Below the pieces are notes generated by a model that saw nothing but the letters and a program-made list of their open reading frames with translations, had not been told where the DNA came from and made no database searches. DNA of 64,000 bases from Mytilus edulis. Taxonomy: Eukaryota. Positions 12,461 through 58,135 of this stretch are shown piece by piece. Positions within the stretch are counted from its first letter, which is position 1. Every line of letters begins with the position of its first letter. The position numbers were made by a program, and so were the translations under genes. The DNA lies in assembly GCF_963676685.1 (NCBI RefSeq), contig NC_092353.1:20307307-20371306 (forward strand). The letters are read 5' to 3'.

Positions 12461-12465
12461 AAGTA

Positions 12466-12530: not shown

Positions 12531-13080
12531 ATATACGACGAAAAATTTTTCAAATTTTGCGGTCGTATAAAAATAGATATAACAAAAACATTTTCATCAC
12601 AGGAAAAAAACTTAATAAACTTACTGCTAAAAATATGACTATAAAAACATATGATATTAAGTGAATTTAATATCATCTTTAGTCCTTCAAATACCTATTT
12701 GGTAGTGAAATCTTTATGTATTAGGTGAAATTGTTTGTTTCAAGTGACTTTAGATTAGATTAAACAGAGATCCATGATAGTAGGGGAATTTTGTAACTGA
12801 AACTGATTAACAAACATTTAATATAATTGCATCATTATCATCAATTAATAATTACATTAAATGTATGTTTCACTATAATACGTTATTCTGATTGGCTAAC
12901 TGTACGTCACATGTTATTCCTTAAGCAGTTGTATCACACAATAAAACTTTTCATTCATGATGACACGAGGTCCCACAATAAAGTGCACAGGTAAATGAAA
13001 TAAATACTTGATAAAAGGCGTGTTTTCATGATCCTATAGGTAAAAATGTAATTATAAGTATTGAATGCTTTTTTTTGTAA

Positions 13081-22357: not shown

Positions 22358-22619
22358 GTTTTGTTCGCTACTGACGACAACCCCGGACAGTTTGTTAAAA
22401 AAACACGTTCATAATTGGGTAAAGCAAATGGTGAATGTAAAAAAATACCACCAAACAGCCTTATTAAGATCACAAAACTTTACCAACACACATGATAAGA
22501 CGCGACCAGTGGAATAGATGCAAGGGGTGATACAGCAATTGCAAAACGGGTAGATACAATCTGTAATTAAATAATTAAAGTAATCAAAAGTTTATTTAGA
22601 GTAACCATATGCCCCCCCC

Positions 22620-23110
22620 CCCCTGAGTTTTGTGGTAATAAACATTGTGTGCATGTTTTATAACATTTAGTTGAGACAAACTTAAGTAAGAGAACGAAAC
22701 AAAAAAAATCAGCAACTTTTCCATTTGTAAAGGGGTATAAAATCAGGTTTCCTTTTACAAAATGTCACTTGGATGGAGAGTTGTCTCATTGGCACTCATA
22801 CCACATCTTCTTATATCTATAACTATAGAAAAGCTTAAGTGATGCCACCAAAATTGGAACTTAAGCATTTTGTATATGTTTCATAATATTTAGTTGAGGC
22901 AAACTTAAGTAAGGGAATGAAAATGAAAAAAAAATCAGCAATTTTTTAATTTGTTAAGGGCAGATTCCTAGAACAGTAGAATGGACGCCATCAAAATTCT
23001 TAACTATGTTTGTGGTCAAAAGCATTGTGTATCAGTTTCATAACATTTGGATGAGGCAAACTAAAGTAAGAGAATGGAAACAAAAAACTTTGCCAATTAG
23101 TAGCAGAGGA
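22620..23110. repeat. ~200 bp repeat, 3 copies (22640-22740, 22860-22960, 23015-23110), interrupted by a SINE 3' fragment at 22750-22830
   Basis: 'gtaataaacattgtgtgcatgttttataacatttagttgagacaaacttaagtaagagaacgaaac...atcagcaacttttccatttgtaaagg'. Another copy at 25800-25880. Confidence 0.5.
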
Positions 23111-24130
23111 AATTATTTTGTAAAAATTTACAAAAATTTACCAAACTAATGAAAATTGTTAAAAATTGAATATAAAGGGCAGTAACTCCTTAAGGGATCA
23201 ACTGACCATTTTGATCATGTTGACTTATTTGTACATCTTATTTTGATGAACATTATTGCTGTTTACAGTTTATCTCTATCTATAATAGTATTTAAGATAA
23301 TAACCAAAAACAGCAAAATTTCCTTAAAAATTACCAATTCAGGGGCAGCAACCCAACAACCAGTTGTACAATTCATCTGAAAATTTCAGAGCAGATAGAT
23401 ATTGACTTCATATACAATTGAACCACTTGTCAGATTTGCTCTAAATGCTTTGGTTTCAGAGTTATAAGCCAAAATCTACATTTTACACTCTATGTTCTAT
23501 TTTTAGCCATTGCGGCCATCTTGGTTAATTGGCTGGGGCATCGCACACATTTTCAAACTAGATACCCTAATAATGATTGTGGCTAATTTTGGTTTTTATT
23601 GATGGTAAAAGATTACAGAAATTTATGAAAAAATTGTAAAAAAATGACTATAAAAGGGCAATTACTCCTTAACGGGTCAATTGACCATTTTGATCATGCT
23701 GACTTATTTGTAGATCTAACTTTGCTGAACATTTTTGCTGTTTTCAGTTTATCTCTATCTATAATAATATTCAAGATAATAACCAAAAACTGCAAAATTT
23801 CCTTAAAATTACTATTTTGGGAGCTGTCAGAGCAACCCAATAACGGGTTGTCTGATCTGTCTGAAAATTTGAGGGCAGATAGATCTTGATCTGATATAAT
23901 TTTAACCCCATGTCAGACTTGCTTTAAATGCTTTGGTTTCAGAGATAAAAGCCAAAATCTACATTTTACCCCTATGTTCTATTTTTAGCCATGGTGGCCA
24001 GCTTGGTTGGTGGGCCGGGTCACTGGACACATTTTGTAAACTAGATACCCTAGTGATGATTAAGACCAAGTTTGGTGAAATTTGGCCCAGTAGTTTCAGA
24101 GGAGAAGATTTTTGTAAAAGTTAACGATGA
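23110..24130. repeat. Tandem duplication of a ~510 bp unit (2 units, ~85-90% identical)
   Basis: Units at 23130-23640 and 23620-24130, both containing 'tagccat(t/g)g(c/t)ggcca(t/g)cttggtt...ctagataccct'. Array is immediately followed by (GAC)n plus hairpin (24128-24200). Confidence 0.6.
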
Positions 24131-24200
24131 CAAACGGACGACGACGACGTACGCCAAGTGATGAAAAAAAGCTCAGTTGGCCCTTTGGCCAGTTGAGCTA
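24128..24200 (+). other. Element 3' terminus, family B: (GAC)n microsatellite, imperfect hairpin, short tail
   Basis: 'gttaacgatgacaaacggacgacgacgacgtacgccaagtgatgaaaaaaagctcagttggccctttggccagttgagctaataa'. Homologous to 53865-53945: 'gttaacgacgacgacgacgg...caagtggtgagaaaagctcacttggcccttcgggccaggtgagctagaaa'. Confidence 0.5.
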
Positions 24201-27745: not shown

Positions 27746-28149
27746 TAAAAAAATGAACGAAAAACAAATATGTGACACATAAACAAACTGTTCATTTGAT
27801 TATCTGAGTTCTAACCTTTTTTAATTATTATTTATTTTTTATTAAGCCTGTTATTTTTTACCTTAGTCATCATTCCTCTATTATCATCATCACCATCTTC
27901 ACCATCTTCATCATCTTCATCAACCTGCAATCTGTTATCTGCATAGTCTGTGACATTTACCTTACCCCTACAAATATATATCAAGATATATTTATTATTT
28001 TGTAATGAAACTGTTACACAATTAGAATGTATATCATCTAAATTATAATAAGGCTTTTGATAAAGTTTTAATATCTAAAATATGATCTAATCAGAATAGC
28101 TATGGCAGGCCATTTTTATATTTATTCACTTTCGAGATACCTTAGAAAG

Positions 28150-28700
28150 TTAAATCAGATATCTTTATAATTAAATAAGATATCTTATAAATTAATAGAT
28201 ATCTTATAAATTAATAGATTTCTTATAAATTAATAGATATCTTGATAAATAAATAAGATATCTTATTTAGTTTAAAAGATATCTCATTAATTAGATATAG
28301 GAAGATGTGGTGTGAGTGCCAATGAGACAACTCTCCATACAAATAACAATTTAAAAAGTAAACCATTATAGGTTAAAGTACGGCCTTCAACACGGAGCCT
28401 TAGCTCACACCGAACAACAAGCTATAAAGGGCCCCAAAATTACTAGTGTAAAACCATTCAAACGGGAAAACCAACGGTCTAATCTATATAAACAAAACGA
28501 GAAACGAGAAACACGTATATATTACATAAACAAACGACAACTACTGTACATCAGATTCCTGACTTAGGACAGGTGCAAACATTTGCAGCGGGATTAAACG
28601 TTTTAATGGATTATTAAGTTTATAAGATATCTTATAAACTATATAAGATATCTTTTATATAGTTTCTTATAAAGATATCTTTGAAACAAAATAAGATATC
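28150..28700. repeat. Minisatellite of ~19-21 bp units built on the palindromic core AAGATATCTT, interrupted by a SINE insertion at 28305-28565
   Basis: 'agatatcttataaattaatagatatcttataaattaatagatttcttataaattaatagatatcttgataaataaataagatatctt', resuming at 28610-28700. Confidence 0.8.
28305..28565 (-). mobile_element. SINE family copy (longer subfamily), inserted into the GATATC minisatellite; inverted relative to the copy at 29225-29450
   Basis: 'gaagatgtggtgtgagtgccaatgagacaactctccatac' is the reverse complement of the SINE 3' end; the body matches 29230-29400 in reverse. Confidence 0.5.
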
Positions 28701-29224
28701 TTCTTTTCTTTTTACGTATTAAAATAAAGTATCCCTGTATGTTGGAAAAAAGTTTGACCAATCATAAAATCCAAAGCAATTCAGATCGAGATTGCTAATT
28801 CATATCTGTATCTGTGTTAGATTCTGCCAGTGTAGGCACACTTCCAAAGGAGGAAAATAAAACATTAAGTGTCCTTCACCATCCACCAGCAGGAATATAT
28901 TAATAATAAAATTGACTTCTGTTTCGCCACCGTTATGTACATTGATATATGATCATATATAATTTCACAATAAAAAGAGACAATTATCTTTGATTTAAAT
29001 TTGCATGCACCAAAAATTTATAATTGGTTAACAACAGTATTTGATTTGATTACAACTAATGATACCTGTTGAGATTCGAACCTTGATCATCAGCATAATG
29101 TCAAAATAATTACTGTGCACTTATAAAAGCTATATATATAAATGCTTGTTTTCTCCATTTTTGTTATCAAATTTTATTAAATTCTATTGGCAAACATTTA
29201 TTCTCTGCTGTATTAAATGGAAGT

Positions 29225-29450
29225 GCATGGTATATACAGATAAGGCCGTTGGTTTCCCCCTTTGAATTGTTTTACACTATATTATTATAGCTATAAATTT
29301 TTGGAGCCCTAAAATTATAGCTTGTTGTTCGGTGTGAGCCAAAGCTTCGGATTGAAGGCTGTACCTTGACCTATAATGGTTTACTTTTATAATTTTTTAC
29401 TTGAATGGAGAGTTGTCTCATTGTAAATTACCACATTTTCCTCTATCTAT
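29225..29450 (+). mobile_element. SINE family copy (longer subfamily)
   Basis: 'aaggccgttggtttccccctttgaattgttttacac...gaaggctgtaccttgacctataatggtttacttt...ttgaatggagagttgtctcattg'. Confidence 0.5.
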
Positions 29451-29809
29451 TTTGTTAACATACAAATTACTAAAAATGGGTAAAGGGGGGATACATGCAT
29501 TTCAACTGTTTCATTGTAAATGATTATTTCACGATAAACGAAAGAGAAAAGGGCAATTCCTTGCTTCCTATCAAAATGAATGAAATTTGTTTAATGTGCT
29601 TCAAGCAGGAAAAATTGCAAAGATATGAAAATAACAGTTTACTACCAGAACGAAAATCCCAATAAAAACAAGGATATTTCTTTTGTCCTTTTTTCTAGGT
29701 AATTCTGCTTTAAAAAAAATAAAATCAAATAAACATAAAAACTTATCACATTTAGTTTGTTAGAATTCTTACTTGTAATTGTTTATTGTTTGATAGATTC
29801 TTATTTATT

Positions 29810-30440
29810 ATATCAAATATATATAAGATATCTTATTTAATAATTGAGATATCTTATTTTATAATTGAGATATCTTATTTATCTTATTTAATAATTGAGA
29901 TATCTTATTTAATAATAGAGATATCTTATTTAATAATTGAGATATCTTATTTAATAATTGAGATATCTTATTTATCTTATTTAATAATTGAGATATCTTA
30001 TTTAATAATTGAGATATCTTATTTAATAATTGAGATATCTTATTTAATAATTGAGATATCTTATTTAATAATTGAGATATCTTATTTATCTTATTTAATA
30101 ATTGAGATATCTTATTTAATAATAGAGATATCTTATTTAATAATTGAGATATCTTATTTATCTTATTTAATAATTGAGATATCTTATTTAATAATTGAGA
30201 TATCTTATTTAATAATTGAGATATCTTATTTAATAATTGAGATATCTTATTTATCTTATTTAATAATTGAGATATCTTATTTAATAATTGAGATATCTTA
30301 TTTTATAATTGAGATATCTTATTAAATAATAGAGATATGTTATATATAAGATATCTTATTTAATAATTGAGATATCTTATTTAATAATAGAGATATGTTA
30401 TATATAGAGATATCTTATTTAATAATAGAGATATCTTATT
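29810..30440. repeat. 21 bp minisatellite (unit gagatatcttatttaataatt, with 30 bp variants), ~28 units
   Basis: Direct reading. The listed 179-aa ORF 29786-30325 'ISYLIIE...' is a repeat-frame artefact (21 is a multiple of 3). Confidence 0.9.
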
Positions 30441-30974
30441 TAATATATAAGATTTCTTAATTACTATTAAAGATATTCTATTTAAAATAAAATAAGTCTC
30501 ACTCAAAATATGTATAACCAATCTCATTTCAATTTGTTTTCTGTTTATCTAGAAATAAGAATTTACGAAACTATTATAAAGAATTGAAATATTTTATTAA
30601 GTTCCATTTTTTTTTTGGGGGGGGGGGGGTGATTAACTCAAAATGCTCTCCCTTTCATAATTCGTCAGTCAGAAATAATGACAAGAATGAGACTTAGTCC
30701 ACAAATAGATATGATACAAAAATTACAGGAATTTTCACATTCGTTGAACCATTCACTTGTGCTGGCATGGTCATCTACATTCTTTATAACCATGGTTAAC
30801 ATACCTCTCTTTTATTCTATCCGAATGTGACAAAAACTATTTTGTTAGCTTACTTCTATTATATTTCGATGGTTTTTTTTTCCATCACAATCTCTCCTTG
30901 ATTATTACTTGCATCAAAGTCAACAGATTTTATATAAGGTAACTGTTTTAAAATAAAATTAATAATATGTCATA

Positions 30975-31305
30975 TTTCAAATAGTTTGAAAAAATAAGAT
31001 ATCTTATAAAGTAAATAAGATATCTTATTTACTTTTAAAGATATCTCATAAACTATACAAGATATCTTATAAAGTATTTGTTTAAAAGATATCTTTGAAA
31101 AGATATAAGATATCTTATAGAATAAATAAGATATCTTATAGAATAAATAAGATATCTTATAAATTAAATAAGATATCTTATAAATTAAATAAGATATCTT
31201 ATAAATTAAATAAGATATCTTATAAATATTATAAGATATCTTGTATACTTTATAAGATATCTTATTAACTTTACAAGATATCTTGAAATTGATTAAATAT
31301 AAAAA
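30975..31305. repeat. 21 bp minisatellite (unit aagatatcttataaattaaat) sharing the AAGATATCTT core
   Basis: Direct reading. Listed ORF 30970-31320 (-) is an artefact. Confidence 0.85.
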
Positions 31306-31789: not shown

Positions 31790-32205
31790 AAGATTTAAAG
31801 CCTTTGCAAACAGATGGGATCAAATGCTTTACCGAGCTCAGCCTGATACGACAGCAGAAATTGAACCCTGAACAGTTGGTGCAAGTTTGGACACAATACT
31901 CAAGCTTGATACTGAGACACAAACTAAATGTGGGGAAAGATCTTGAAATATTTTTATTAACTTTCAATTGAATATTTCTTGCTATTACACAATACCATAT
32001 GCAATTGAAGATTTCTGGCTATTGCACACTATTGGGCTATTGTGCAATACTATGCAATTGGATATTTCTTGCTTTTGTCCCATACTGTGCAATTGAAGAT
32101 TTCTTGCTATTGTGCAATACTGTGCAATTGAAGATTTCTTGCTATTGTGCAATACTGTGCAATTGAAGATTTCTTGCTATTGCGCAACACTTCATATATA
32201 GTTTA
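31790..32205. mobile_element. Partial third copy of the family A element: left arm plus 40 bp sub-repeats
   Basis: 'gaaattgaaccctgaacagttggtgcaagtttggacacaatactcaagcttgat' matches 10335-10385 and 55165-55205. It is followed by 5-6 units of 'ttgcacaatactgtgcaattgaagatttcttgctat', each unit carrying the inverted repeat attgcaca/tgtgcaat. Confidence 0.4.
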
Positions 32206-33523
32206 CAAATCATGTTTGGTGTATCTCCTGCCATATCAGTATTATTTTGCTTTTATCTATAAATTGCAAAATGGAAAATTTTGAAGAGAAAAAAAAAAAT
32301 ATGAAAAAAAATTCCTACCCAAATTTTATTCAATTCCCTTTGAGTAATTATCAAACTCTATCCCAGCTTTCCCTTTAAGGTATGGTACATTGCAGTACAA
32401 TTTCAGAGAAATCCATACACTTGAACACAAGTTAATGTCTAGAAACTAGAAAAATGCTTGTTAACCAAAATAAAATGACATTAATTTTTTGTGGGTACTA
32501 ATTTTCGTGGATTGAGAAAACTTGCATTTCAGTGGATATTTGGTTTCATGGTTTTGTCAATGTCTGTATACAATCCTATACATATAAACTTTCTCATTGG
32601 TTGAATATTTAAATTTGTCAGTTTCACCTTTACCCACAAAACCCATGAAAAGTGGTATCCAACACATAACACAAATGTAATAATGAATACACAGTATTTC
32701 CCTATACTTACATCCTCTTTTTAAACTTTCTAGACCTTAGATTATCAAATAATGAAGCATGGGAATCAACCTAGAAAATTAAGAAATCATTTTTAAAATT
32801 CTCACAAGGTCTGAGGTTTTTCATCTAACAAAGTGTATCTAAATTTTTGCCCTATACATATAGCATTGCCTGCCAAGTTATATAACATATACATCTCGAT
32901 CTATGTGCCTGTCATTTATTCTGTTGATATTACTGAATAGCTTTGTTCTTTTACAGTTGTGGCATAATCATTAATTTGCACAGAATTTCCAATAAACCAG
33001 TGCTATTAAGGTCTTAAACTTGCAGTGAGGTGAGAGCTTTTGCTCCATGTTAAACAATGTGACTGAAATAAGTTTTAACAAGAGTTTTTATTGTTCACTG
33101 ACTTCTTCGCATCTACCAGTTCAAATCTATTCAGCATATCACCACAATGGCAGGGATTCAAAGTTTACTGAACAGTCGTTTGCCAAAGTATATAAATGCT
33201 GACATATATAGCATAGTAGTTGTTCGACTTTGCTATTACATAAATCGATGTGAAAAAGAACAAGAAGTTTAGATTTCCTTTTAAAATAGAATGCACTAAC
33301 AACCCAAGGAATCATAATATCATATATATATATATATATCTGATGGTGGAAATGAGATTTTGCAAATCGTAAAAACAACACTTTTAAACTAAGTTTTCAA
33401 AATCGGAACTATTTGTTTGATATTATCTAAAATTAACTTTTTCATTTGTCATTATCTATAATTGGTTCAAATTAATCATTCATTTGACATTCATATTATA
33501 AGTACAGGTATCTTTTTACTTAC

Positions 33524-34875
33524 CATTAATTCTTCAGTATTACTTTGTTTTTGAACGCTATCAGCAGAATCTAATTGGCTAGGTATATCCTTCTCAATTA
33601 TTGATAGTGATTTTGTTATACTCCCAAAAACACGAGCAGATCCTCCACGAGCAGTTAAACCACTCATTTTTTTAGCTGAAGATCCATCTGAAATGTCTGA
33701 AAGTAATTGTGCTCTTGGTGATGTTGATGAAAATACTTGATTTTGTTTTAGATGAGAAGAACTACTCTTTGCCATTTCCCTAGGACCAAATGGCGGTGGT
33801 TGTATTCCTCTTGGAGGACCATACCTTGGTTCCGGTAGCATACGATTCAATTCTTTTAGTAGTGAAGGTGGTGGTGCACCAGACACTAAAGAGTCCATTT
33901 GTTTTGATGACTGCAAAGGTGGTTGTGGTTTTCCCTGTTGATGCAGTGGTGGCATTCCTGATGCTGAGCATTTAATTTTAACTGGCATTCCTCTTGATTG
34001 TAGGGATGTTGGAGGTGGCATTCCGCTTGATGGAAGAGGCGGTGGGGGTGGTGGTATCCCTCTTGATGATGCTAGAGGGGGTGGAGGAGGGGGTATTCCA
34101 AACTGTGGACCAACCTGTTGTGGCAACAGTTCATCACATATTTCTTCTGGAAATGCTAATGCAGCAGACATTGGAGAGTACATTTGTATTGATGGAGGAT
34201 CTGACTTTACTGATGAAGAGCCAACAACATGCATTCCTCCTGGTGGTTGTGGAGGTGGCATTCCTCTCGATGGATCATCAAATAACCTTTTTGAACGAAA
34301 TGTTGATGGTTTAATTTGCCATTTGTCTGACATTGCTCTTGTTGATTGTAGGGGTGCTGGAGGTGGCATTCCTCTTGTTGATGGTAGAGGGGGTGGAGGA
34401 GGTGGCAAAGCGTCATAAACTATTTCTTCAGGAAATGCTTGTGCAGGAGACATTGGAAAGTACAATTGTGTCGATGGATCAGGTGGTATTACTGATGAAG
34501 ACCCATCAACATGTTTTCCTCTTAGTGGTTGTGACGGTGGCATTCCTCTGGGTGGTTGGGGAGGACGCATTTCTCCTGGTGGCTCATAAGATAACCTTTT
34601 TGAATGAAATGGTGATGCTTTAATTTCCAATTTATCTGACAGAAGTTGCGATGTACTTTGTTGTGTTCCTTTTGATTGAGCATCAGAAATCATTTGGGAT
34701 TGGAATGGTGGTGATGCATCTTGTTGGGTTGGTTGTATTTTTCTTAGTGAACCAGATTTAAGAGAAAGCATGTCTGATAGTGTTTTTAATGCTTGATGTT
34801 TGTCAGGTACACTAGATTCTATTGTATCTTCATCTGAAGATAAGGTTAAAGACCTGCTATATTTCATCAAAGTAT
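33524..34875 (-). CDS. Large exon encoding a proline-rich, FH1-like low-complexity repeat domain (two ~100-aa internal repeats)
   Basis: 465-codon open frame. Acceptor 'ttttgtag|ATACTTTGATG' (exon high end 34875, needs 1 nt from the previous exon). Donor 'GAAGAATTAATG|gtaagt' (exon low end 33524). Motifs 'GIPPPPPPLPSSGMPPP', 'RGMPPPQPP', 'ALPPPPPPLPSTRGMPPPAP'. The plus-strand ORFs 33790-34623 are antisense artefacts of CCN codons. Confidence 0.55.
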
Positions 34876-35689
34876 CTACAAAATGCAAAAATTATTAATC
34901 AACTATTTTTTTCATCCAATATTGTATCTTAATATTTCTAAAAAAAAAATATTATCTTCAACCTTTTCTAGTGTATTCAATAAATATGAGTATATGAATA
35001 AATATTATATGTAGGTTACACCTTTGCATGAATATATAATTCTGACCTCACTTGCAAACACAGGAATAGCAGATGGCTTAACTATAATTTATCAGCCATG
35101 GACTCGGGGATTTTCTTGTACTAGTAATGTTTATCTGTTTTCATAATGCATTTGCATGAAATATTTGCCACTGGATGCTAATCCTTAGTTCATTTAACAA
35201 AGTCAAACATAAATCTGTTGTAGTACATGAGTTTATAATTAGTGTCTTCTTAATATGAGAGTTTTATGGGTTTTTTTCTTATAAAATTGTTCTTGTAGAA
35301 AGTTTCATATCAAAGTGTGTGTTTTTTTTTATCAGATAACTTTTGTCCACCAATGACTTATTTGTCACTCAGATTGAGGTTCTTTTCAAATTAAACATAC
35401 ATTTTTTTCCCTTCCTCATTCTAAATTTTTTTATTGTGATAGTATAGAGATCCCATTTGTTTTGTCAAGTCTAATAGTGAACTACTGTTCATCATTTATG
35501 CCAAAATTTATGACTTGCCAGGCAAATATGAAAATGTTCAACAAAATGATGACAACAGCACAAAATATATTAACTGCAAATTCTCTTATCTCTGTTTTTT
35601 TTGCCTGTTTTTTTAGCACTTTAGTTGTTTTCATGACTATTACTGATCTTTTGACTTAAACCAATTGCAACTAATTTTAACGGTTTAGT

Positions 35690-36335
35690 CCACTGTGTAA
35701 GACTAGTGTGAGAGTTAAACACCACCGTCTAAGACTAGTGTGAGAGTTAAACACCACCGTCTAAGACTAGTGTGAGAGTTAAAACACCACCGTCTAAGAC
35801 TAGTGTGAGAGTTAAACACCACCGTCTAAGACTAGTGTGAGAGTTAAAACACCACCGTCTAAGACTTGTGTGAGAGTTAAACACCACCGTCTAAGACTAG
35901 TGTGAGAGTTAAACACCACCGTCTAAGACTAGTGTGAGAGTTAAACACCACCGTCTAAGACTAGTGTGAGAGTTAAAACACCACCGTCTAAGACTAGTGT
36001 GAGAGTTAAACACCACCGTCTAAGACTAGTGTGAGAGTTAAACACCACCGTCTAAGACTAGTGTGAGAGTTTATCACCACCGTCTAAGACTAGTGTGAGA
36101 GTTAAACACCACCGTCTAAGACTAGTGTGAGAGTTAAACACCACCGTCAAAGACTAGTGTGAGAGTTAAACACCACTGTCTAAGACTAGTGTGAGAGTTA
36201 AACACCACTGTCTAAGACTAGTGTGAGAGTTAAACACCACTGTCTAAGACTAGTGTGAGAGTTAAACACCACTGTCTAAGACTAGAGTGAGAGTTAAACA
36301 CCACTGTCCAAGACTAGTGTGAAAGTTAAGCACTA
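35690..36335. repeat. 32 bp minisatellite, ~20 units, with a variant gradient
   Basis: Unit 'taagactagtgtgagagttaaacaccaccgtc'. The last ~6 units carry accaccgtc -> accactgtc, with occasional 33 bp variants. Confidence 0.9.
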
Positions 36336-36789: not shown

Positions 36790-36975
36790 TTAATCATGCG
36801 GTTAGTTTTCTCGTTTGAATTGTTTTACATTTGTGATATTGGAGCCTCTTATAGCTGACTATATGTGGTATGGGCTTTGCTCATTGTTGAAGGTTGTAAA
36901 GTGACCTATAACTGTTAATTTTCGTATCATTTGGTTGTCTCATTGGCAATCAAACCACATCTTCATCTTTAAAGG
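36790..36975 (+). mobile_element. SINE family copy
   Basis: 'gcggttagttttctcgtttgaattgttttacatttgtgatattggagcctcttatagctgactatatgtggtatgggctttgctcattgttgaaggttgtaaagtgacc...ttggttgtctcattggcaatcaaaccacatct'. Confidence 0.6.
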
Positions 36976-38920: not shown

Positions 38921-39515
38921 CAGTTAACAGTAAACAGTTAATTTATAAATATGAAAAAAAGTTAAAAAGGCCAAATAAAGTAAGAAGTTGAAGAGCATTG
39001 AGGACCAAAGTTCCTAAAAGTTGTGCCAAATACGGCTAAAATAATCTATTCCTGAAGTAAAAAAACCTTAGTATTTCAAAAATTCTAAATTTATTTTGTA
39101 AACAGTTAATTTATAAATATGACCATATCAATGATAATTCATGTCAACACAGAACTGACTACTGGGCTTATGAAACCCTCGGGGTATTAAAACTCCACCA
39201 GCAGTGGTATTGACCCAGTGGTTGTAAATAAACTCATCAGAGATACCAGATACCAGATAGACTGCTTTATGGAACAGATTTTACTCATCGCCAAAGATTG
39301 CTTTCATCTTTACATTTGGTTTATATGGTTAGATGTCTCATTGGTAATCATAACACATCTGATTCCTTTATACTCTATAAACAATTGTTGGTGCTATCAA
39401 TGTCCAAAGCATGCTTAAGTTTTGATTTTGGTACTTTCTTGCACTTCTGCAACTCTGATGCAGTCAAGACAGTAATTATGGTAACTTTACCGAATTCAAT
39501 AAACTCTAAACTTAC

Positions 39516-39871
39516 CTTCACCTTCAGCAGACCACAGTGTTAAATTATCTCTTAACAACTGCATTTTTACAGTTGAATCTTTATAGCTCTCTTCACTTAA
39601 ACAATCTAGCTCTGATATTGCCTGATCAAATGCTGATTTTGCTATACTACATGTTTTATCTGGGGAGTTGAGAACATCGTGATATAATGCAGACAAACTA
39701 AGTGCTAAATCTAGACATACAGGATGAGTAGGTGGTAAACCTGCAGATGCTGTATCACTTGCAATGTTATATGCAGCTAATTTTTTTTCTGTGGCTTCAT
39801 TTTTATCATTTCCTGTGACAGTTTCATTTAAGAATTGGTAATAGTCTGCTAAGTATTGGTAATAATTTCTC
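39516..39871 (-). CDS. 14-3-3-like protein, C-terminal-half exon
   Basis: 'RNYYQYLADYYQF...[74 protein letters not shown]' versus canonical 14-3-3 'GDYYRYLAEVA...[69 protein letters not shown]'. Acceptor 'cctggaaag|GAGAAATTAT'. A possible donor 'GAAGGTGAAG|gtaagt' (phase 1) sits at 39516; alternatively the frame reads through to a stop at 39496 ('...GKFRVY*'). Confidence 0.7.
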
Positions 39872-40247
39872 CTTTCCTGGAAATTTTGGAAGGTCAAAAT
39901 ATAAAAAAGAAAATGTGGTCTAATTTGCCAATAAGATAACTCTCCACAAGAGACCAAATGACACAGAAATTAACAACACTAAGTGACTGTACAGCCTTCA
40001 ACAAAGCCCATACAGCATATAGGCAGCTATAAAAACAAAGATAATGACAATCTTGAAACACTTTTGGATCAATCAATGATTTTTACTTTATACTTAAGTA
40101 CCTACAGAACAGTCATTCATAAAGTTTTTAGTTAAACTTTAATTCATAGAATAAAAAATATAAGAGGTCAAGAAATTTCCAATAATACATTAGAAGAATT
40201 TAATCTTTGGTCTTTTTAACATTTGAAGAATTTTTTGTGAAACTTAC

Positions 40248-45724: not shown

Positions 45725-45845
45725 ATGGGTTTTTCTAATTGTTGAAGGCTGTATGGTTGACTATAATTGCTTACACCCTATAGCTATCCATATCAATTTG
45801 TCTGGTGAATATTTGTCTCCTTGGCAATCATACCACATCTTTTTA
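45725..45845 (+). mobile_element. SINE family 3'-half fragment (intronic)
   Basis: 'ttgttgaaggctgtatggttgactataattg...gtctccttggcaatcataccacatct'. Confidence 0.5.
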
Positions 45846-46332
45846 TTCTAATAACAAGTTACGGTTTCTAGTGTGTATTTATTCTGAACTTTTTGACTAC
45901 ATAAAACATTGGAATATGAATTTATTCAAACAGTTCTGGGTCGTACAGTAACTTTCAATTTGGTTTAAAACTTTTAAGTGTTATTCTATTCTGTATTATT
46001 TGTTCATGAAATAGTTACAGAATAAATTACCAAGCCTACAAGTCCATTTGTGTTAAAAGTTTCAAAAGCTAACAGCAACATTATCAGTATCTCTGCCCAT
46101 CTAATTTGGACCATTTTTATAGGCCTTAAGTTTTTATAGCATATTCAATATAATAGAAAGACTCTCCACATATATATCTATGTTTGGTCATGCAAAATTT
46201 ATAGGAAAGATAAAGCATCAAAATACTTTATACAGAATCTGTGTTATATGTAACAAAAGTTACAACAGATGGACCAAAACGGACAAAGAGTTGGGGTGAA
46301 ATATTCTTATCTATTAACATAGGTAAATATTA

Positions 46333-51453: not shown

Positions 51454-51534
51454 CTGAAACAAAAAAAAAACAAACTTTACTTCATTTCTATATTTTATAT
51501 ATATATATATGCTTACAGAAAATTAATGGGCCCT

Positions 51535-51736
51535 ACTAAAAAGTGCCCGGTAGTGCCCAGTAGAAGAAAAATTGCCCGGGGAAGAAAACTAGAGGCTCTC
51601 AAGAGCCTGTATCGCTCACCTGATTCTACTTGGGTTTTTGAAATCATATAAAAAAATATAAAATTTGGCTAAAAGTGACAACACAACCTCATTTATAAGG
51701 AAAGGAACATGTTTAATTTCATTCAAAAGTCCCCCA
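51535..51736 (+). other. Putative left arm of the family B element preceding the 166 bp satellite
   Basis: 'gtgcccggtagtgcccagtagaagaaaaattgcccggggaagaaaactagaggctctcaagagcct...'. The motif 'gcccggggaagaaaa' recurs in tandem at 53950-54050 and inverted at 54715-54830. Confidence 0.3.
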
Positions 51737-53855
51737 CTGGCGGCCATCTTGGATGACGGATCGGCTACAAAGTAACAACACTTGGTCAGCACCTCATAAG
51801 GAACATTCATGCCATGTTTGGTTTTATTCCATTCAGTGGTTCTCTAAAAGAAGTTATTTGTATGCATTTCCCATAGGGTCCTATGTTAAACTAAGTCCTC
51901 TGCTGGCGGCCATCTTGGATGATGGATCGGCTACAAAGTAACAACACTTGGTCAGCACCTCATAAGGAACATTCATGCAATGTTTGGTTTTATTCCATTC
52001 AGTGGTTCTCTAAAAGAAGTCATTTGTATGCATTTCCCATAGGGTCCTATGTTAAACTAAGTCCCCCGCTGGCGGCAATCTTGGATAATGGATTGGCTAC
52101 AAAGTAACAACACTTGGTCAGCACCACATTAGGAACATTCATGCCATGTTTGATTTCATTCCATTCAATGGTTCTCTAAAAGAAGTCATTTGTATGCATT
52201 TCCCATAGGGTCCTATGTTAAACTAAGTCCCACGCTGGCGGCCATCTTGGATGATGGATCGGCTACAAAGTAACAAAACTTGGTCAGCACCACATAAGGA
52301 ACATTCATGCAATGTTTGGTTTCATTCCATTCAGTGGTTCACTAGAAGAAGTGATTTGTATGCATTTCCAATAGGGTCCTATGTTAAACTAAGTCCCCCG
52401 CTGGCGGCCATCTTGGATAATGGATCAGCTACAAAGTAACAACACTTGGTCAGCACTCCATAAGGAACATTCATGCTATGTTTGCTTTAATTCCATTTAG
52501 TGGTTCTCTAGAAGAAGTCATTTGTATGCATTTCCCATAGGGTCCTATGTTAAACTAAGTCCGCCGCTGGCGGCCATCTTGGATGATGGATCGGCTACAA
52601 AGTAACAACACTTGGTCAGCACCCCATAAGGAACATTCATGCTATGTTTGGTTTTATTCCATTCAGTGGTCTTCTAAAAGAAGTCATTTGTATGCATTTC
52701 CCATAGGGTCCTATGTTAAACTAAGTCCCCGGCTGGCGGCCATCTTGGATGATGGATCAGCAACAAAGTAACAACACTTGGTCAGCACCTCATAAGGAAC
52801 ATTCATGCCATGTTTGGTTTCATTCCATTTAGTGGTTCTCTAAAAGAAGTCATTTGTATGCATTTCCCATAGGGTCCTATGTTAAACTAAGTCCCCCGCT
52901 GACGGCCATCTTGGATGATGGATCGGCTACAAAGTAACAACACTTGGTCAGCACCCCATAAGGAACATTCATGCTATGTTTGGTTTTATTCCATTCAGTG
53001 GTTCTCTAAAAGAAGTCATTTGTATGCATTTCCCATAGGGTCCTATGTTAAACTAAGTCCCCGGCTGGGGGCCATCTTTGATGATGGATCGGCTACAAAA
53101 TAACAACACTTGGTCAGCACCACATAAGGAACATTCATGCCATGTTTGGTTTCATTCCATTCAGTGGTTCACTAGAAGAAGTCATTTGTATGCATTTCCA
53201 ATAGGGTCCTATGTTAAACTAAGTCCCTGCTGGCGGCCATCTTGGATAATGGATCGGCTACAAAGTAACAACAATTGGTCAGCACTCCATAAGAAACATT
53301 CATGCAATGTTTGGTTTCATTCCATTTAGTGGTTCTCTAGAAGAAGTCATTTGTATGCATTTCCCATAGGGTCCTATGTTAAACTAAGTCCCCCGCTGGC
53401 GGCCATCTTGGATGATGGATCGGCTACAAAGTAACAACACTTGGTCAGCACCCCATAAGGATAATTCATGCTATGTTTGGTTTTATTCCATTCAGTGGTT
53501 CTCTAAAAGAAGTCATTTGTATGCATTTCCCATAGGGTCCTATGTTAAACTAAGTCCCCGGCTGGCGGCCATCTTGGATGATGGATCGGCAACAAAGTAA
53601 CAACACTTGGTCAGCACCTCATAAGGAACATTCATGCCATGTTTGGTTTCATTCCATTCAGTGGTTCTCTAAAAGAAGTCATTTGTATGCATTTCCCATA
53701 GCGTCCTATGTTAAACTGAGTCCCCCGCTGGCGGCCATCTTGGATGATGGATCGGCTACAAAGTAACAACACTTGGTCAGCACCTCATAAGGAACATTCA
53801 TGCCATGTTTGGTTCCATTCCATTCAGTGGTTCTCTAGAAGAAGTTCAAAATGTA
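51737..53855. repeat. 166 bp satellite, ~13 monomers, organised as a 332 bp dimeric higher-order repeat
   Basis: Monomer 'ctggcggccatcttggatgatggatcggctacaaagtaacaacacttggtcagcacctcataaggaacattcatgc(c/a)atgtttggtt...catttcccatagggtcctatgttaaactaagtcc'. Alternate monomers differ (gatgatggatcggc versus gataatggattggc). The 62-aa ORFs listed every 332 bp are repeat artefacts (166 bp monomers; reading frames are not continuous across units). Confidence 0.9.
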
Positions 53856-53864
53856 AATTGTTAA

Positions 53865-53945
53865 CGACGACGACGACGGACGACGACGACGGACGACAAG
53901 TGGTGAGAAAAGCTCACTTGGCCCTTCGGGCCAGGTGAGCTAGAA
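53865..53945 (+). other. Family B element 3' terminus: (GACGAC)n, 14 bp-stem hairpin 'agctcacttggccc-ttc-gggccaggtgagct', tail 'agaaa'
   Basis: Direct reading. Stem has 1 mismatch. Homologous to 24128-24200. Confidence 0.5.
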
Positions 53946-54830
53946 ACAGTGCCTGGGGAAAAGAAAAAGCGCCCCATGTAGAAAAAACAGCGCCCGGGGA
54001 AAAGAAAATGCGCCTGGGAAAGAAAAGGCGCCCAGGGAAATTTTATAGATATTGTATTGGCATGAGACAACTTTGTGTCGATGAAATAAGTTATGCACAT
54101 TGATTTTTTTTTCTAATTTCAGACAAGTATTTTGCAAATTCAGATAATAGAGATATATAATAAAGCATAAAAACAAGTATGAATGTTTCAATTTTAACAA
54201 TAATATATGAATACTATTTCAAAAGACAGATAAAAATGAATCGATCACAGTTTATGCTATAGATTTATAAAATGTAAGACATCAAAAGACATGTTTTTTA
54301 AGAATGATTTAAAAAAAAAATGCAAAATCAACAGTGTGTACAGTTAACGATTGTTAAAAAAATGAAAACGGATGTAGAATAATGAAATATTAAAATTCCA
54401 TAAGCGTACCTTTTGCATTGTCTGAACAGAACGTTTTATTATTTTCTCTTTATTATTTATATAATATATTACAAATCTCATCTCTGTCAATCGTAATAAA
54501 GCTGATGTGTATGTGTATTAATCTGACTGGTCATTGGAAAAAAACACTTTGCATGAATAATTCACATTTTTTGTCTGTGGTGAGGAACATCTCAGGCAAA
54601 GTTTGTCAATTCCAGATCGTAGCATCGTACATATCCCCATTTATATAAGGACAAAACAAGCAATGATTTTTTTTCTTCAGGAAAATATTTATTGTTATCA
54701 TACATATTATTATTTTATTCTCCCAGGCGCCTTTTCTTTTCCCCGGGCGCTGTTTTTTCTTCCCCGGGCGCTTTTTCTTTTCTCCGGGCGCTTTTTCTTC
54801 ACCCGGGCGCTCCTGAGCGCTTTTTAGTAC
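53945..54830. mobile_element. Foldback-like structure: inverted arrays of ~25 bp G/C-rich sub-repeats flanking ~665 bp
   Basis: 53950-54050 '(gtgcctggggaaaagaaaaa)(gcgccccatgtagaaaaaaca)(gcgcccggggaaaagaaaat)(gcgcctgggaaagaaaag)(gcgcccagggaaatttt)' versus 54715-54830 'ctcccaggcgccttttcttttccccgggcgctgttttttcttccccgggcgctttttcttttctccgggcgctttttcttcacccgggcgc' (reverse-complement arrangement). No ORF inside. Confidence 0.35.
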
Positions 54831-55113
54831 GACCGTAATTAATCAATATAAAGCTATATTATTATTCCATTCAATTCATATTTTGTATTTTTTCAAAATA
54901 GAACTGAACTGTTAACTGCTGTTGCTATTATCATAATATTCTTTTGAATATCAAACGAGTCAAATTTGGCAGTCTTCAAATATCTATTGAAAATGATGAA
55001 GTTAACAAAAACACAATCAAAAAAGCAAATCTGCTGATAAAAAAGAAAGTCTAGAAGAATGAAGAATGCTATTTGTAAATCTTATGATACTTATGGTTTT
55101 CTAATCCATCAAG

Positions 55114-56772
55114 CTAACCAGATGCTCTGCAGGGTGCAGCTTTATATGACCGCAGAGGTCGAACCCTGAACAGTTGGGGCAAGTATGGACACAACATTTA
55201 AGCTTGATCAAATAATTAACACAATATAGGTTTCTGACACAGAATGAATGTGGTCTAAGAACTTAAACTTAAAAACTTAAAAATTTTAAATTGGACATTT
55301 ACCTATTATGGTCCAATATCCAAAATCTAAATACATGGTTAGATTCAGCATATCATAGAACCCCAAGAATTCAATTTTTGATGAAATCAAATAATGTTCA
55401 ATTTTAGACCCTTTAGACCTCAATGTGGACCAATTTGATAACCGGGTCTAAATATTAAAAATCTAAATACATGGTAAGATTCAGCATATTGAAGAACCCC
55501 ATATATTCAATTTTTGTTGAAATCAAACAAAGTTTAATTTTTGACCCTTTGGACCTTAATGTAGACCAATTTGAAAACGGGACAATACTGTGCAATTGAA
55601 TATTTCTTGCTATTGCGCAAAACTATGAAATTGAAAATATCTTGCTATTGCGCAATATTGTGCAATTAGATATTTCTTGCTATTGCACAATACTGTGCAA
55701 TTGAAGATTTCTTGCTATTGCGCAATACTGTGCAATTGAAAATTTCTTGCTATTGCACAATACTGTGCAATTGAAGATTTTTTGCTATTGCGGAATACTG
55801 TGCAATTAAAAATTTCTTGCTATTGCACGATACTAAATATAATAATTTTGGACCTCGATTTGGACCAACTTGAAAACTGGGCCCATAATTTAAAATTTAA
55901 GTACATGTTCAGATTCAGCATATATCAAAGAACCTCAATTTTTGTTCAAATCAAGCTAAGTTTAATTTTGGACCCTTTGGGCCTTAATGCAGACCAATTT
56001 GAAAACAGGACCAACAAGAATGTGTCCCCAGTACACGAATGCCCCACTCGCACTATCATTTTCTATGTTCAGTGGACCGTGAAATTGGGGTAAAACCCTC
56101 TAATTTGGCATTAAAATTAAAAAGATCATATCATAGGAAACATGTATACTAAGTTTGAAGTCGATTGGACTTCAACTTCGTCATAAACTACCTTGACCAA
56201 AAACTTTAACCTGAAGAGGGACAGACGGACGAAGGAACAGATGGACGGACGAACGAACGGGCGCACAGACCAGAAAACATAATGCCCCTCTACTATCGTA
56301 GGTGGGGCATAAAAATTAAGAATCTGAATACACGGTTAGATTTGGCATATCAAAGAACCCCAATAATTCATTTTTGATGAAATCAAACAAGTTACTTTTG
56401 GACCCTTTTGGCCCCTAATTCATTGTCACCAAAACTCCCAAAATCAATCCAAACCTTCCTTTAGTGGTCATAAACCTTGTGTTAAAATTTCATAGATTTC
56501 TATTAACTTATACTAAAGTTATTGTGCAAAAACCAAGAAAAATGCTTATTTGGGATCTGTTTTTGGTCCCTAATTCCTAAACTGTTGGGACCAAAACACC
56601 CAAAATCAATCCCAACCTTCCTTTTATGGTCAGGTTTATATTTCATAGATTTCTGTTTACTTTTACTAAAGTTAGAGTGCGAAAACCAAATATCTTTGAT
56701 GACGCTGACGCTGATGCCAACGTGATACCAATATACGACCAAAAAATTTTCAATTTTTGCGGTCGTATAAAA
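55114..56772. mobile_element. Family A tandem-repeat-carrying element, copy 2, with a nested MITE insertion
   Basis: Left arm 'gctaaccagatgctctgcagggtgcagctttatatgaccgcagaggtcgaaccctgaacagttggggcaagtatggaca' matches 10287-10365. ~122 bp units at 55270-55590 and 55850-56030; 40 bp units at 55590-55840; ~155 bp units at 56340-56690; (GAC/GCT)n at 56695-56725; hairpin 'caatatacgacc...gcggtcgtataaaa' at 56735-56772. Lies within the 51453-56897 intron of the VWA5A-like gene. Confidence 0.5.
56035..56313 (+). mobile_element. Nested copy of the ~300 bp MITE/SINE-like element (same family as 14348-14653) inserted into a 122 bp unit of the family A array
   Basis: The host unit 'ggaccaaaaattaag' becomes 'ggaccaa[caagaatgtgtcc...gtaggtggggcat]aaaaattaag'; the insertion is absent from copy 1 (10287-12575). 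An A-run expansion by 2 is consistent with a 2 bp (AA) TSD. Confidence 0.5.
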
Positions 56773-56896
56773 AGGAGCTTGAACATATCAGACATTTCAA
56801 AAAACTCAATTTGTCAAAATTTGAAAGCTTTTCATAGCTGAAAAATAAAACCATGCACAGAAAAATTCTTGAAGCAACATAAAGAGAGTTACTTAC

Positions 56897-57944: not shown

Positions 57945-58135
57945 GCCGTTAGTTTTCTCATTTGAATTGTTTTACATTGACATATAGGGGCTTTTTATAG
58001 CTGACTATGCGGTATGGGCTTTGCTCTTTGTTGAAGGCCGTATGGTGACCTATAGTTGTCAATTGTCTGTATCATTTTGGTCTCTTTTGGACAGTAATGT
58101 CTTATTGGTAATCATACCACATCTTCTTTTTTACA
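57945..58135 (+). mobile_element. SINE family copy
   Basis: 'aaggccgttagttttctcatttgaattgttttacattgacatataggggctttttatagctgactatgcggtatgggctttgctctttgttgaaggccgtatggtgacctatagttgtc...ttttggacagtaatgtcttattggtaatcataccacatcttc'. Confidence 0.6.

What the first reader, a model, noticed from the sequence alone, without database searches (positions are those of the whole stretch)
53865..53945. Family B: one conserved (GAC)n plus hairpin 3' terminus follows two unrelated tandem arrays, a ~510 bp duplicated unit and a 166 bp satellite
The ~85 bp segments at 24120-24200 and 53865-53945 are clearly homologous. Both begin 'gttaacga', contain (GAC)n, then 'caagtg(a/g)tga(a/g)aaaa-agctca(g/c)ttggccctt(t/c)gg(g)cca(g)gt(t)gagcta' with a 13-14 bp stem. 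The arrays upstream of them differ: 2 x ~510 bp at 23110-24130 versus 13 x 166 bp at 51737-53855. Both arrays still share the short motif 'gcggccatcttgg'. Right after the second terminus comes a block of 'gcgcccggggaaaagaaaa' repeats that also occurs upstream of the array (51540-51590), hinting at tandem element insertion.

This suggests one mobile-element backbone that amplifies different internal tandem repeats, which would be a direct mechanism for satellite birth and dispersal. That part is inference.
Basis: partly seen in the sequence, partly recalled or inferred. Interest (0 to 1): 0.65.

Follow-up and report, generated by a model that had tools for sequence, protein, structure and literature searches.

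The report
Satellite-carrying Helentron-type transposon ends (HINE)
The two matching (GAC)n-plus-hairpin segments are the conserved ends of a non-autonomous, rolling-circle-type transposon family (HINE / "pearl"-like) that carries satellite-like tandem repeats, a kind of element already well described in oysters, clams and flies.

Summary
24113-24200 and 53852-53942 are homologous (83.7% over 92 bp). Both carry a 13-14 bp hairpin. The same end occurs in 16 copies from independent marine-metagenome contigs.

Read on the minus strand, each segment is the 5' flank of a Helentron-associated interspersed element (HINE; also called pearl, DTC84 or Cg_HINE). The order is subterminal inverted repeat, short complementary repeat, (GTC/GTCC)n microsatellite, central tandem repeats, 3' subterminal repeat, 3' palindrome.

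Copy B (51589-53942) is complete. Its other end (CTAGAGGCTCTCAAGAGCCTGTATCGCTCACCTG) recurs in 8 external copies. It sits at an oligo-A/T tract and splits one arm of an inverted-repeat element, which explains the 'gcgcccggggaaaagaaaa' blocks on both sides. Copy A lacks its other end.

The two arrays are not unrelated. The 166-bp monomer is homologous, in register, to the part of the ~485-bp unit next to the microsatellite. One external copy has intermediate monomers. So the satellite probably arose from the element's own core.

Sister copies carry 1.9 to 12.8 monomers. The window array grew partly by duplicating a 5-monomer block.

No autonomous partner was found. Verdict: a new member of a known kind, of modest interest.

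The parts
51589..53946 (-). Element B: a complete tandem-repeat-carrying HINE, about 2.35 kb. The last 4 nt (GAAA on the + strand) are probably element-borne terminal Ts.
   Evidence: Both ends match profiles built from independent copies. The element is bounded by the two halves of a split inverted-repeat arm.
53929..53942 (-). 5' subterminal inverted repeat of B (TAGCTCACCTGGCC on the - strand). It forms the outer arm of the hairpin.
   Evidence: GCTCACCTG is complementary to 51614-51622. It is conserved in 16 right ends.
53911..53924 (-). Short inverted repeat (IR) complementary to the 5' subTIR. It forms the inner arm of the 14-bp hairpin 53911-53941.
   Evidence: Fold. The stem is kept in 13 of 13 copies, with G.C->A.T and C.G->T.A double changes.
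53863..53897 (-). Microsatellite: (GAC)n/(GACG) on the + strand, (GTC/GTCC)n on the - strand.
   Evidence: Its length varies between copies.
51727..53845 (-). Central tandem repeats: 12.8 monomers of 166 bp. Monomers 4-8 and 9-13 are a duplicated 5-monomer block.
   Evidence: TRF. Identity peaks at lag 5, with shared diagnostic variants.
51614..51622 (-). 3' subterminal inverted repeat of B (GCTCACCTG as read on the + strand).
   Evidence: It is conserved in the left ends of L001, L005 and L017, with 1-2 changes in L002, L012, L016 and L018.
51593..51608 (-). 3' palindrome AGGCTCT-CA-AGAGCCT, followed by the terminal CTAG (51589-51592).
   Evidence: The stem's 7th pair is T.A in B and C.G in L001.
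24113..24200 (-). 5' flank of element A: subTIR 24187-24200, IR 24170-24182, degenerate microsatellite 24125-24154.
23120..24116 (-). Central repeats of element A: 2 units of about 485 bp. The segment 23992-24116 is homologous to positions 12-136 of the 166-bp monomer.
   Evidence: 81.5% identity. (nhmmer E=0.002). The same register is seen in L004, L005, L006 and L013.
22618..23096 (-). Degenerate second array upstream of A's units, related to the 161-bp monomer of the other HINE family in the window. It is interrupted by a short dispersed repeat at 22746-22820. A's 3' end was not found.
   Evidence: E=3.8e-5 and 1e-4..
51529..51588 (.). Outer half of the left arm of the host inverted-repeat element that B interrupted.
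   Evidence: Pairs with 54775-54834 (I2).
53943..54040 (.). Inner half of the left arm of the host inverted-repeat element (19-21 bp subrepeats).
   Evidence: Pairs with 54714-54798 at 86% (I1).
54714..54834 (.). Uninterrupted right arm of the host inverted-repeat element. It serves as a paralogous 'empty site' for B.

Best explanation
Both segments are the microsatellite-bearing flank of one family of non-autonomous Helentron-type transposons (HINE; the 'pearl/DTC84/Cg_HINE/DINE-1' architecture).

**Architecture, read on the minus strand**
1. A short T run.
2. A 5' subterminal inverted repeat, TAGCTCACCTGG.
4. A (GTC/GTCC)n microsatellite.
5. Central tandem repeats.
6. A 3' subterminal repeat, CAGGTGAGC.
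7. A 6-7 bp palindrome.
8. CTAG, followed by Ts.

**Shown here**
- The modular anatomy.
- Conservation of both ends across many copies in unrelated flanks, which means the unit moves as a whole.
- Insertion at oligo-T/A tracts.
- A nested insertion that splits a host inverted repeat.
- Variable monomer number with a fixed junction between array and microsatellite.
- In-situ growth of the window array by duplication of a 5-monomer block.
- Homology of the 166-bp monomer to the element's own core.

**Inferred from knowledge of the family**
- Copies are mobilised in trans by a Helentron Rep/helicase/endonuclease through a single-stranded, rolling-circle-like intermediate.
- The subTIRs and the 3' palindrome act as the recognition and termination signals.
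- The tandem arrays expand and contract by unequal exchange or slippage, and are spread by transposition.
For: **Anatomy and significance:**

**Right end:** identical in 16 copies, '...AGCTCACTTGGCCCTTCGGGCCAGGTGAGCTA|AAAA'.

**Hairpin:** the stem is kept in 13 of 13 copies, with two double compensatory changes.

**Left end:** the window copy B and the external copies share 'AAA|CTAGAGGCTCTCAAGAGCCTGTnTCGCTCACCTG'. The subTIR is complementary to the right end.

**Copy series:** B-type copies have the order LEFT, then n monomers, then RIGHT. n is 1.9, 2.8, 4.7, 4.8, at least 3.7, and 12.8. The last monomer always ends at model position 128-129.

**Insertion site:** the host inverted-repeat arm is split exactly at 51588/53942.

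**Same architecture elsewhere in the window:** two further families show it.
- Family C at 10293-12573 and 55113-56773.
- Element D, nested at 56018-56310.

**Literature definitions:**
- 5' subTIR, IR and microsatellite in the left flank; 3' subTIR and palindrome in the right flank; oligo-T target; no TSD; GTCY/GTCC microsatellites (PMC7492417).
- DINE-1/HINE structure (PMC4067079).
- L + core repeats + (ACGG/ACGA)n + R (PMC3879986).

**Exclusions:** no tRNA or Rfam family in the window.
Against: - No autonomous Helentron sharing these termini was found. The window has no Rep/PIF1-like ORF, and the host genome could not be searched.
- The subTIR is 9 bp perfect, or 11 bp with one mismatch. This is at the short end of the 11-15 bp range reported.
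- The palindrome lies only 4 nt from the 3' end, closer than the 8-35 nt reported for mite HINEs.
- The TSD test is ambiguous, because both ends abut A/T runs.
- Copy A has no detectable 3' end.
Confidence: 0.8

Rival explanations
1. It is a cut-and-paste MITE with short terminal or subterminal inverted repeats and an AA/TT target-site duplication. This was the original classification of pearl and DTC84.
For: - Inverted motifs are present at both ends, and A-runs flank both ends.
- For B, the flanks carry 8 positions of A-run against 6 in the paralogous arm. For D, the filled site reads AACAA[...]AAAAA against AAAAA in the empty paralog. Both could be read as a short TSD.
- PMC3879986 proposed AA as the TSD.
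Against: - The 4-nt A-run after GAGCTA has a constant length across copies. It carries a subfamily-specific A->G change shared by B and L015, so it behaves as part of the element rather than as duplicated target.
- The inverted repeats are subterminal and asymmetric, and there is an extra 3' palindrome. This is the pattern in DINE-1/HINE, for which autonomous Helentron partners are documented (PMC4067079).
Confidence: 0.1
2. It is a canonical non-autonomous Helitron read on the + strand. The hairpin would then be the 3' terminal hairpin followed by CTRR.
For: On the + strand the element ends ...GAGCTAA/GAGCTAG, which fits CTRR. A strong hairpin lies at that end.
Against: - The + strand 5' end is CTAGAGG, not TC.
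- The base after the end is A, not T.
- The hairpin overlaps the terminus instead of lying 10-12 nt upstream.
- Complementary subterminal repeats and a second palindrome at the other end are Helentron/HINE features, not Helitron features (PMC4067079).
Confidence: 0.05
3. The arrays are pre-existing genomic satellites captured as 'filler' DNA by a common pair of flanks. They did not arise from the element itself.
For: - Capture is one of two published scenarios (PMC7492417).
- L011 has the flank next to an unrelated ACACCAT-type repeat.
- A carries a second, unrelated array upstream.
Against: - The 166-bp monomer is collinear with the core next to the microsatellite in sister copies, always at model positions 12-136.
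- The array-microsatellite junction is the same in every B-type copy.
- L001 holds intermediate ~160-bp monomers.
Confidence: 0.15
4. It is a SINE-like retroposon with a microsatellite tail, or a chance juxtaposition of a microsatellite with local satellites.
For: A simple-repeat stretch lies near one end.
Against: - No tRNA or Rfam match.
- The microsatellite is internal and is followed by a conserved 45-bp hairpin module.
- Both ends are conserved, with inverted complementarity.
- Sixteen independent copies rule out chance.
Confidence: 0.02

Closest known systems
Cg_HINE elements of Crassostrea gigas (Vojvoda Zeljko et al. 2020, PMC7492417)
   Same: - Left flank with 5' subTIR, complementary IR and a GTCY/GTCC-type microsatellite.
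- Central 140-180 bp satellite-like repeats, usually 2-5 and up to 29.
- Right flank with 3' subTIR and palindrome.
- Oligo-T insertion sites.
- Constant orientation of the array relative to the flanks.
- Some elements carry two consecutive arrays.
- Related flanks can carry different repeats.
   Different: - No sequence comparison with the Cg_HINE consensus sequences was possible, because they are printed only in figures.
- Here the array-microsatellite junction is fixed, whereas Cg_HINEs have a variable 10-500 bp spacer.
- One subfamily uses a ~485-bp repeat unit.
pearl elements (CvA/CvE/CvG of C. virginica), DTC84 of Donax trunculus and MgE of Mytilus galloprovincialis (PMC3879986 and references in it)
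   Same: [quoted passage not shown]
- Inverted motifs are subterminal in L and terminal in R.
- AA at the ends.
[quoted passage not shown]
- Core repeats are related to bivalve satellite DNAs.
   Different: - MgE is reported to lack the microsatellite, whereas this family has one.
- Sequence relatedness to these named elements was not tested.
DINE-1 / HINE and their autonomous Helentrons (Thomas et al. 2014, PMC4067079)
   Same: - subTIRs, with an IR next to the 5' subTIR.
- Microsatellite and central repeats.
- 3' stem-loop.
- TT or T-rich target.
- A variable number of terminal Ts.
   Different: - DINE-1 partners are known at 98% identity, whereas no partner is identified here.
- The subTIR is shorter here (9-11 bp against 13 bp).
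- The palindrome is closer to the 3' end.

Membership tests
HINE (Helentron-associated interspersed element) | Complementary subterminal inverted repeats of about 11-15 bp at the two ends | tested here: met
   B has GCTCACCTG at 51614-51622 against CAGGTGAGC at 53931-53939: 9 bp perfect, or 11 bp with 1 mismatch. L001 has 10 bp perfect. Family C has 12 bp perfect. The length is at the short end of the reported range.
HINE (Helentron-associated interspersed element) | Short IR complementary to the 5' subTIR, a few bp away (DINE-1/Cg_HINE type) | tested here: met
   A hairpin of 13-14 bp with a 3-4 nt loop is present in 13 of 13 copies examined.
HINE (Helentron-associated interspersed element) | Palindrome or stem-loop near the 3' end, downstream of the 3' subTIR | tested here: met
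   AGGCTCT-CA-AGAGCCT at 51593-51608, 4 nt from the end. It is conserved in 8 left ends, with a T.A to C.G change at the 7th pair.
HINE (Helentron-associated interspersed element) | Microsatellite next to the 5' flank, followed by central tandem repeats in a fixed orientation | tested here: met
   (GTC/GTCC)n is followed by arrays in every copy with enough sequence. The orientation and the junction are constant.
HINE (Helentron-associated interspersed element) | Insertion into T-rich or TT sites without target-site duplication | tested here: inconclusive
   A/T runs abut both ends in nearly all copies. The two paralogous 'empty sites' cannot separate a 2-5 bp A/T duplication from element-borne terminal Ts. 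These are the host inverted-repeat arm for B and C1 against C2 for the nested element D.
HINE (Helentron-associated interspersed element) | An autonomous Helentron (Rep, PIF1 helicase, AP endonuclease) that shares the termini | not testable with these tools
   The window has no Rep or helicase ORF. The host genome is not available. The oyster study also failed to link its Cg_HINEs to a partner (PMC7492417).
Canonical Helitron (non-autonomous) | 5' TC ... hairpin ... CTRR 3' ends, inserted between A and T | tested here: not met
   The + strand starts CTAG and is followed by A at the far end. The - strand starts T-run/TAGC and ends CTAG followed by T.
SINE / tRNA-derived retroposon | A pol III-type head (tRNA, 5S or 7SL related) and a terminal simple-repeat tail | tested here: not met
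   No tRNA and no Rfam family. The microsatellite is internal.

The most novel reading that the evidence does not exclude
The ~125-bp core next to the microsatellite may be a functional module rather than filler. Its most conserved block, GGCGGCCATCTTGG, shares 12 nt with a standard YY1 consensus binding oligonucleotide. On this reading each monomer recruits a YY1/Pho-type host factor, such as a promoter or chromatin organiser. Copies that duplicate the core, giving birth to the 166-bp satellite from intrinsic sequence, would then be favoured. The module could also be far older than this species: 1193 distinct 50%-identity clusters of related spurious ORFs exist in public protein predictions. 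From memory only, I also recall similar 'AAILD / GGHLG / WRPSW ... KFxxxWPxxxGEE' three-frame motifs in other marine invertebrate phyla.
Probability: 0.12. Interest if true: 0.6.

Novelty: new member of a known kind. Interest (0 to 1): 0.3.

Why it matters
Elements of this kind are the main documented route by which short satellite-like arrays are seeded across bivalve and Drosophila genomes. They can later expand into classical satellites.

This locus adds a clear worked example from a mussel-like genome:
- a complete copy whose boundaries are fixed by a split host inverted repeat;
- a copy series from 1.9 to 12.8 monomers;
- evidence for in-situ block duplication;
- evidence that the satellite monomer derives from the element's own core rather than from captured DNA.

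The last point bears on the open 'intrinsic versus filler' question raised in the oyster work. None of this changes the known picture.

There is also a practical point. Such repeats generate large numbers of spurious ORFs in metagenome protein catalogues.

Tried and rejected
1. **Plain blastn of region A against region B.** It found only the terminal homology. A profile of the 13 monomers was needed to see the deeper homology.
2. **Search for A's other end.** Exact and fuzzy subTIR searches and a left-end profile over the whole window found none. 21132 GTTCAACTGG is a chance-level hit inside a hAT-like ORF.
3. **Organism identification.** The protein hits carry no organism names, and all traced ones come from metagenome assemblies. 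'Mytilid mussel' therefore remains my recollection from the look of the repeats, not a result.
4. **Test of the cross-phylum conservation lead.** The profile search returned 1193 clusters but no taxonomy.
5. **Literature string searches for the motif.** These gave only YY1 oligonucleotides and irrelevant primers.
6. **MAFFT alignment A2 of the hairpins.** It mis-registered copy A by one base, so stem pairs were counted by script instead.
7. **tRNA and Rfam scans.** Both were negative.
8. **Tandem-insertion reading of the flanking 19-mers.** Rejected in favour of a nested insertion.

Full report

Yes. The segments 24113-24200 and 53852-53942 align at 83.7% identity over 92 columns, E=6e-20 (alignment). 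Both begin GTTAACGA and contain (GAC)n. Both end in a hairpin, with a 13-bp stem in A and a 14-bp stem in B. Folded as DNA, the energies are -13.9 and -21.3 kcal/mol, and none of 200 shuffles folded as well.

The upstream arrays are as described, with one correction.
- The 166-bp array holds 12.8 monomers at 51727-53845.
- The other array has a unit of ~485 bp rather than ~510 bp: 23120-23593 against 23605-24076, at 81.5%.

GCGGCCATCTTGG is shared by the two arrays, against a chance expectation of 0.01 matches.

**2. What the segments are**

The window reads like a bivalve genome. I think a mytilid mussel, but that is memory and was not tested.

The key step is to read the segments on the minus strand. 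Read that way, each is laid out in this order:
- a short T run;
- TAGCTCACCTGG;
- a 3-4 nt loop;
- the complement of that motif;
- a (GTC/GTCC)n microsatellite;
- tandem repeats.

This is the left flank of a Helentron-associated interspersed element as defined for Cg_HINE in the Pacific oyster. There the left flank holds the 5' subTIR, IR and microsatellite, often GTCY/GTCC. Central repeats of 140-180 bp follow. The right flank holds the 3' subTIR and a palindrome, and insertion is into oligo-T without TSD (PMC7492417). The same holds for DINE-1/HINE (PMC4067079).

**3. The other end**

For copy B the predicted right flank exists at 51589-51622: CTAG-AGGCTCT-CA-AGAGCCT-GTATC-GCTCACCTG. It has a 7-bp palindrome 4 nt from the end. 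It also has a 9-bp motif exactly complementary to the hairpin's outer arm, or 11 bp with one mismatch.

Copy A has no such end anywhere in the window. Instead, degenerate monomers lie upstream of its units. They are related to the 161-bp repeat of a different element family in the window. A short dispersed repeat interrupts them. A is therefore truncated or rearranged at its 3' side.

**4. Copies from elsewhere**

I obtained 18 external loci by three routes.
- Spurious ORFs across the A core found six predicted proteins, whose contigs were fetched as L001-L006.
- An exact-pattern scan of metagenome contigs with the hairpin gave L007-L014.
- ORFs across the 166-bp monomer gave L015-L018.

All are marine or other metagenome assemblies, presumably carrying host animal DNA.

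The results were as follows.
- Sixteen right ends read ...CAAGTGnTGAGAAAAGCTCACTTGGCCCTTCGGGCCAGGTGAGCTA. Homology to the flanks stops there, and 11 of them continue AAAA.
- The A-run is nearly always exactly four bases. B and L015 share GAAA, so these bases are probably part of the element.
- Eight external left ends share AAA|CTAGAGGCTCTCAAGAGCCTGTnTCGCTCACCTG.
- Complete or near-complete B-type copies have LEFT, then monomers, then RIGHT. The monomer counts are 2.8 (L017), 4.7 (L016), 4.8 (L018) and 12.8 (window). Partial copies have 1.9 (L009) and at least 3.7 (L015).
- The last monomer always ends at profile position 128-129, so the junction to the microsatellite is fixed.
- L002 is a complete A-type copy of ~830 bp. 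L001 is a complete ~1.97-kb copy with several internal arrays.

It is not met. Only L011 departs from the pattern: there about 35 nt of core abut an unrelated ACACCAT-type repeat.

**5. The hairpin question**

Across 13 copies the stem is maintained.
- Position 8 is T.G on the + strand in 11 of 13 copies. On the - strand this is an A.C mismatch.
- L006 shows G.C->A.T at pair 11, and L002 shows C.G->T.A at pair 14. These are double compensatory changes.
- L006 and L003 repair pair 8.
- In window copy A, pair 7 changed on both sides, from C.G to G.T. Copy A's two odd positions are therefore wobble-compatible on the + strand only, not clean compensations.

With this few independent changes, the support for selection on pairing is modest. 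The conservation may equally reflect protein recognition of the subTIR sequence.

**6. The arrays are related**

A profile of the 13 monomers hits 23992-24116, the ~125 bp immediately before A's microsatellite. The match is to profile positions 12-136, at E=0.002 over the whole window.

The same register recurs in other A-type copies:
- L005, E=1e-6;
- L004, E=7e-6;
- L006, twice;
- L013 and L003.

L001 carries four ~130-160 bp monomers that combine A-type and B-type features. Its A-type features are ccggacacaattttgga and cagtagtttcagaggagaagattttt. Its B-type feature is atttcccatagggtcctatgttaa...gctgtggcggccatcttgg.

Hence the 166-bp satellite is a tandem amplification of the element's own core next to the microsatellite. 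The ~485-bp unit is a longer duplication that contains the same core. This favours the 'intrinsic origin' scenario over capture for this array. Capture remains possible for A's second array and for L011.

Within the window array, identity peaks at lag 5 (95.6% against ~93.5%). Monomers 4-8 share diagnostic variants with monomers 9-13. So an 830-bp block was duplicated in place.

**7. The flanking 19-mers**

The repeat finder shows two pairings.
- 51529-51588 pairs with 54775-54834.
- 53942-54026 pairs with 54714-54798, at 86%.

B therefore sits inside the left arm of an inverted-repeat (foldback-like) element whose arms are built of 19-21 bp subrepeats. This is a nested insertion, and it fixes B's boundaries independently.

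At the corresponding point the uninterrupted arm reads GAAGAAAAAACAGCGCC. B's flanks read GAAGAAAA|...|GAAACAGTGCC. So the target was an oligo-A/T tract.

Whether two bases were duplicated cannot be decided. The second paralogous empty site is equally ambiguous. It is the nested element D at 56018-56310, where C1 reads ggaccAAAAAttaag and C2 reads ggaccAACAA[D]AAAAAttaag.

**8. Mechanism**

Shown:
- modular ends with complementary subterminal repeats and a 3' palindrome;
- dispersal as a unit into unrelated sites;
- an oligo-T/A target;
- variable array length with a fixed junction;
- local block duplication.

Inferred from the family:
- mobilisation in trans by a Helentron Rep/helicase/endonuclease via a single-stranded intermediate, with the subTIRs and palindrome as signals;
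- array turnover by unequal exchange or slippage.

No partner element was found. The window holds only three ORFs with a Pfam domain match, none of them Rep-like or PIF1-like:
- a hAT dimerisation-domain ORF;
- an RT fragment;
- a 14-3-3 exon.

Rival readings are a MITE with an AA TSD, a canonical Helitron on the + strand, filler capture, and a SINE. Each is weighed in the Rival explanations section. The MITE reading is the only one the data leave seriously open, and only on the TSD point.

**9. Comparison and novelty**

That is the published conclusion for Cg_HINE, including 'group 2' elements with related flanks and unrelated repeats and elements with two consecutive arrays. It is also published for pearl, DTC84, MgE and DINE-1.

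I therefore file this as a new member of a known kind. Sequence identity to named elements could not be tested, because the consensus sequences are held only in figures.

Two details are mildly informative: the evidence for intrinsic origin of the satellite, and the clean copy-number series.

**10. Lead left open**

Among 13 diverged core copies (60-79% identity), the best-conserved block is GGCGGCCATCTTGG. Twelve of its bases (CGGCCATCTTGG) are identical to the YY1 consensus oligonucleotide printed in PMC4763200.

A profile of core ORFs finds 1193 clusters at 50% identity among 1.84 billion proteins. The ones I traced come only from metagenome assemblies and have no names.

Whether this reflects function, deep conservation, or just a very abundant young repeat cannot be decided here.

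Noticed in passing
window 10293-12573 (-), 55113-56773 (-), partial 31836-32461: A second, unrelated HINE family has the same architecture. It has a hairpin TATACGACCGCAAAA...TTTTCGTCGTATA, a (GAC)n microsatellite (12477-12516) and consecutive arrays of 161, 135 and 35 bp. Its 3' subTIR TATACGACCGCAGAG is followed by the palindrome GCTCCGCAGGGCGCAGC. The 161-bp unit contains GGGCCC sites.
   Followed up: partly
window 56018-56310: A 293-bp element is nested inside the second family-C copy. It has a (GACG/GGAC)n microsatellite, a terminal hairpin ATGCCCCTCTAC..GTAGGTGGGGCAT followed by AAAAA, and a matching ATGCCCCAC near the other end. It has no tandem repeats. Family-C copy 1 is contiguous across the site (11484/11488).
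   Followed up: partly
window 51529-51588, 53943-54040 and 54714-54834: A foldback-like element of about 0.93 kb once B is removed. Its inverted arms are built of 19-21 bp GCGCCCGGGGAAAAGAAAA subrepeats. The left arm has one more subrepeat than the right arm.
   Followed up: partly
window 51740-53743 (every monomer), 23512, 24001; L001 8719, 9036, 9344: GGCGGCCATCTTGG is the most conserved block of the repeat core across diverged subfamilies. It shares 12 nt with a YY1 consensus binding oligonucleotide (PMC4763200).
   Followed up: partly
L005 529-575 and L017 2766-2825: Two independent copies are cut off at the same place, the loop of the terminal hairpin (...ccctttg|). They have lost the outer subTIR arm. 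In L005 another element's opposite end starts 27 bp later.
   Followed up: no
window 22746-22820; also ~3648-3724, 28292-28364, 29378-29450, 2995-3041, 45813-45855, 36934-36964, 58088-58128, 39899-39954: A short dispersed repeat (…gagagttgtctcattggcactcataccacatcttc…) is present at least 9 times in the window, in both orientations. It is probably the end of another small mobile element.
   Followed up: no
window 28135-31284: Large, complex arrays of a 21-bp AT-rich unit (AGATATCTTATTTAATAATTG) with higher-order periods of 63, 72 and 93 bp. The inverse orientation appears at 30992-31284, which suggests a large inverted structure.
   Followed up: no
window 35690-36333: A very homogeneous minisatellite: 20 copies of a 32-bp unit (CCACCGTCTAAGACTAGTGTGAGAGTTAAACA), 96% matches.
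   Followed up: no
window 21022-21651 (-), 7105-8070 (-), 39496-39957 (-), 33491-34888 (-): A hAT C-terminal dimerisation-domain ORF (E=6e-19), a reverse-transcriptase fragment, a 14-3-3 exon (E=1e-35) and a 465-aa proline-rich ORF with no Pfam match.
   Followed up: partly
proteins P0001-P0163: ORFs read through these repeats populate public metagenome protein catalogues. There are 1193 clusters at 50% identity, all unnamed or 'hypothetical protein'. Several show ~52-55 aa periodic units (P0081, P0141, P0157). They are almost certainly non-coding animal repeat DNA called as prokaryotic genes.
   Followed up: partly
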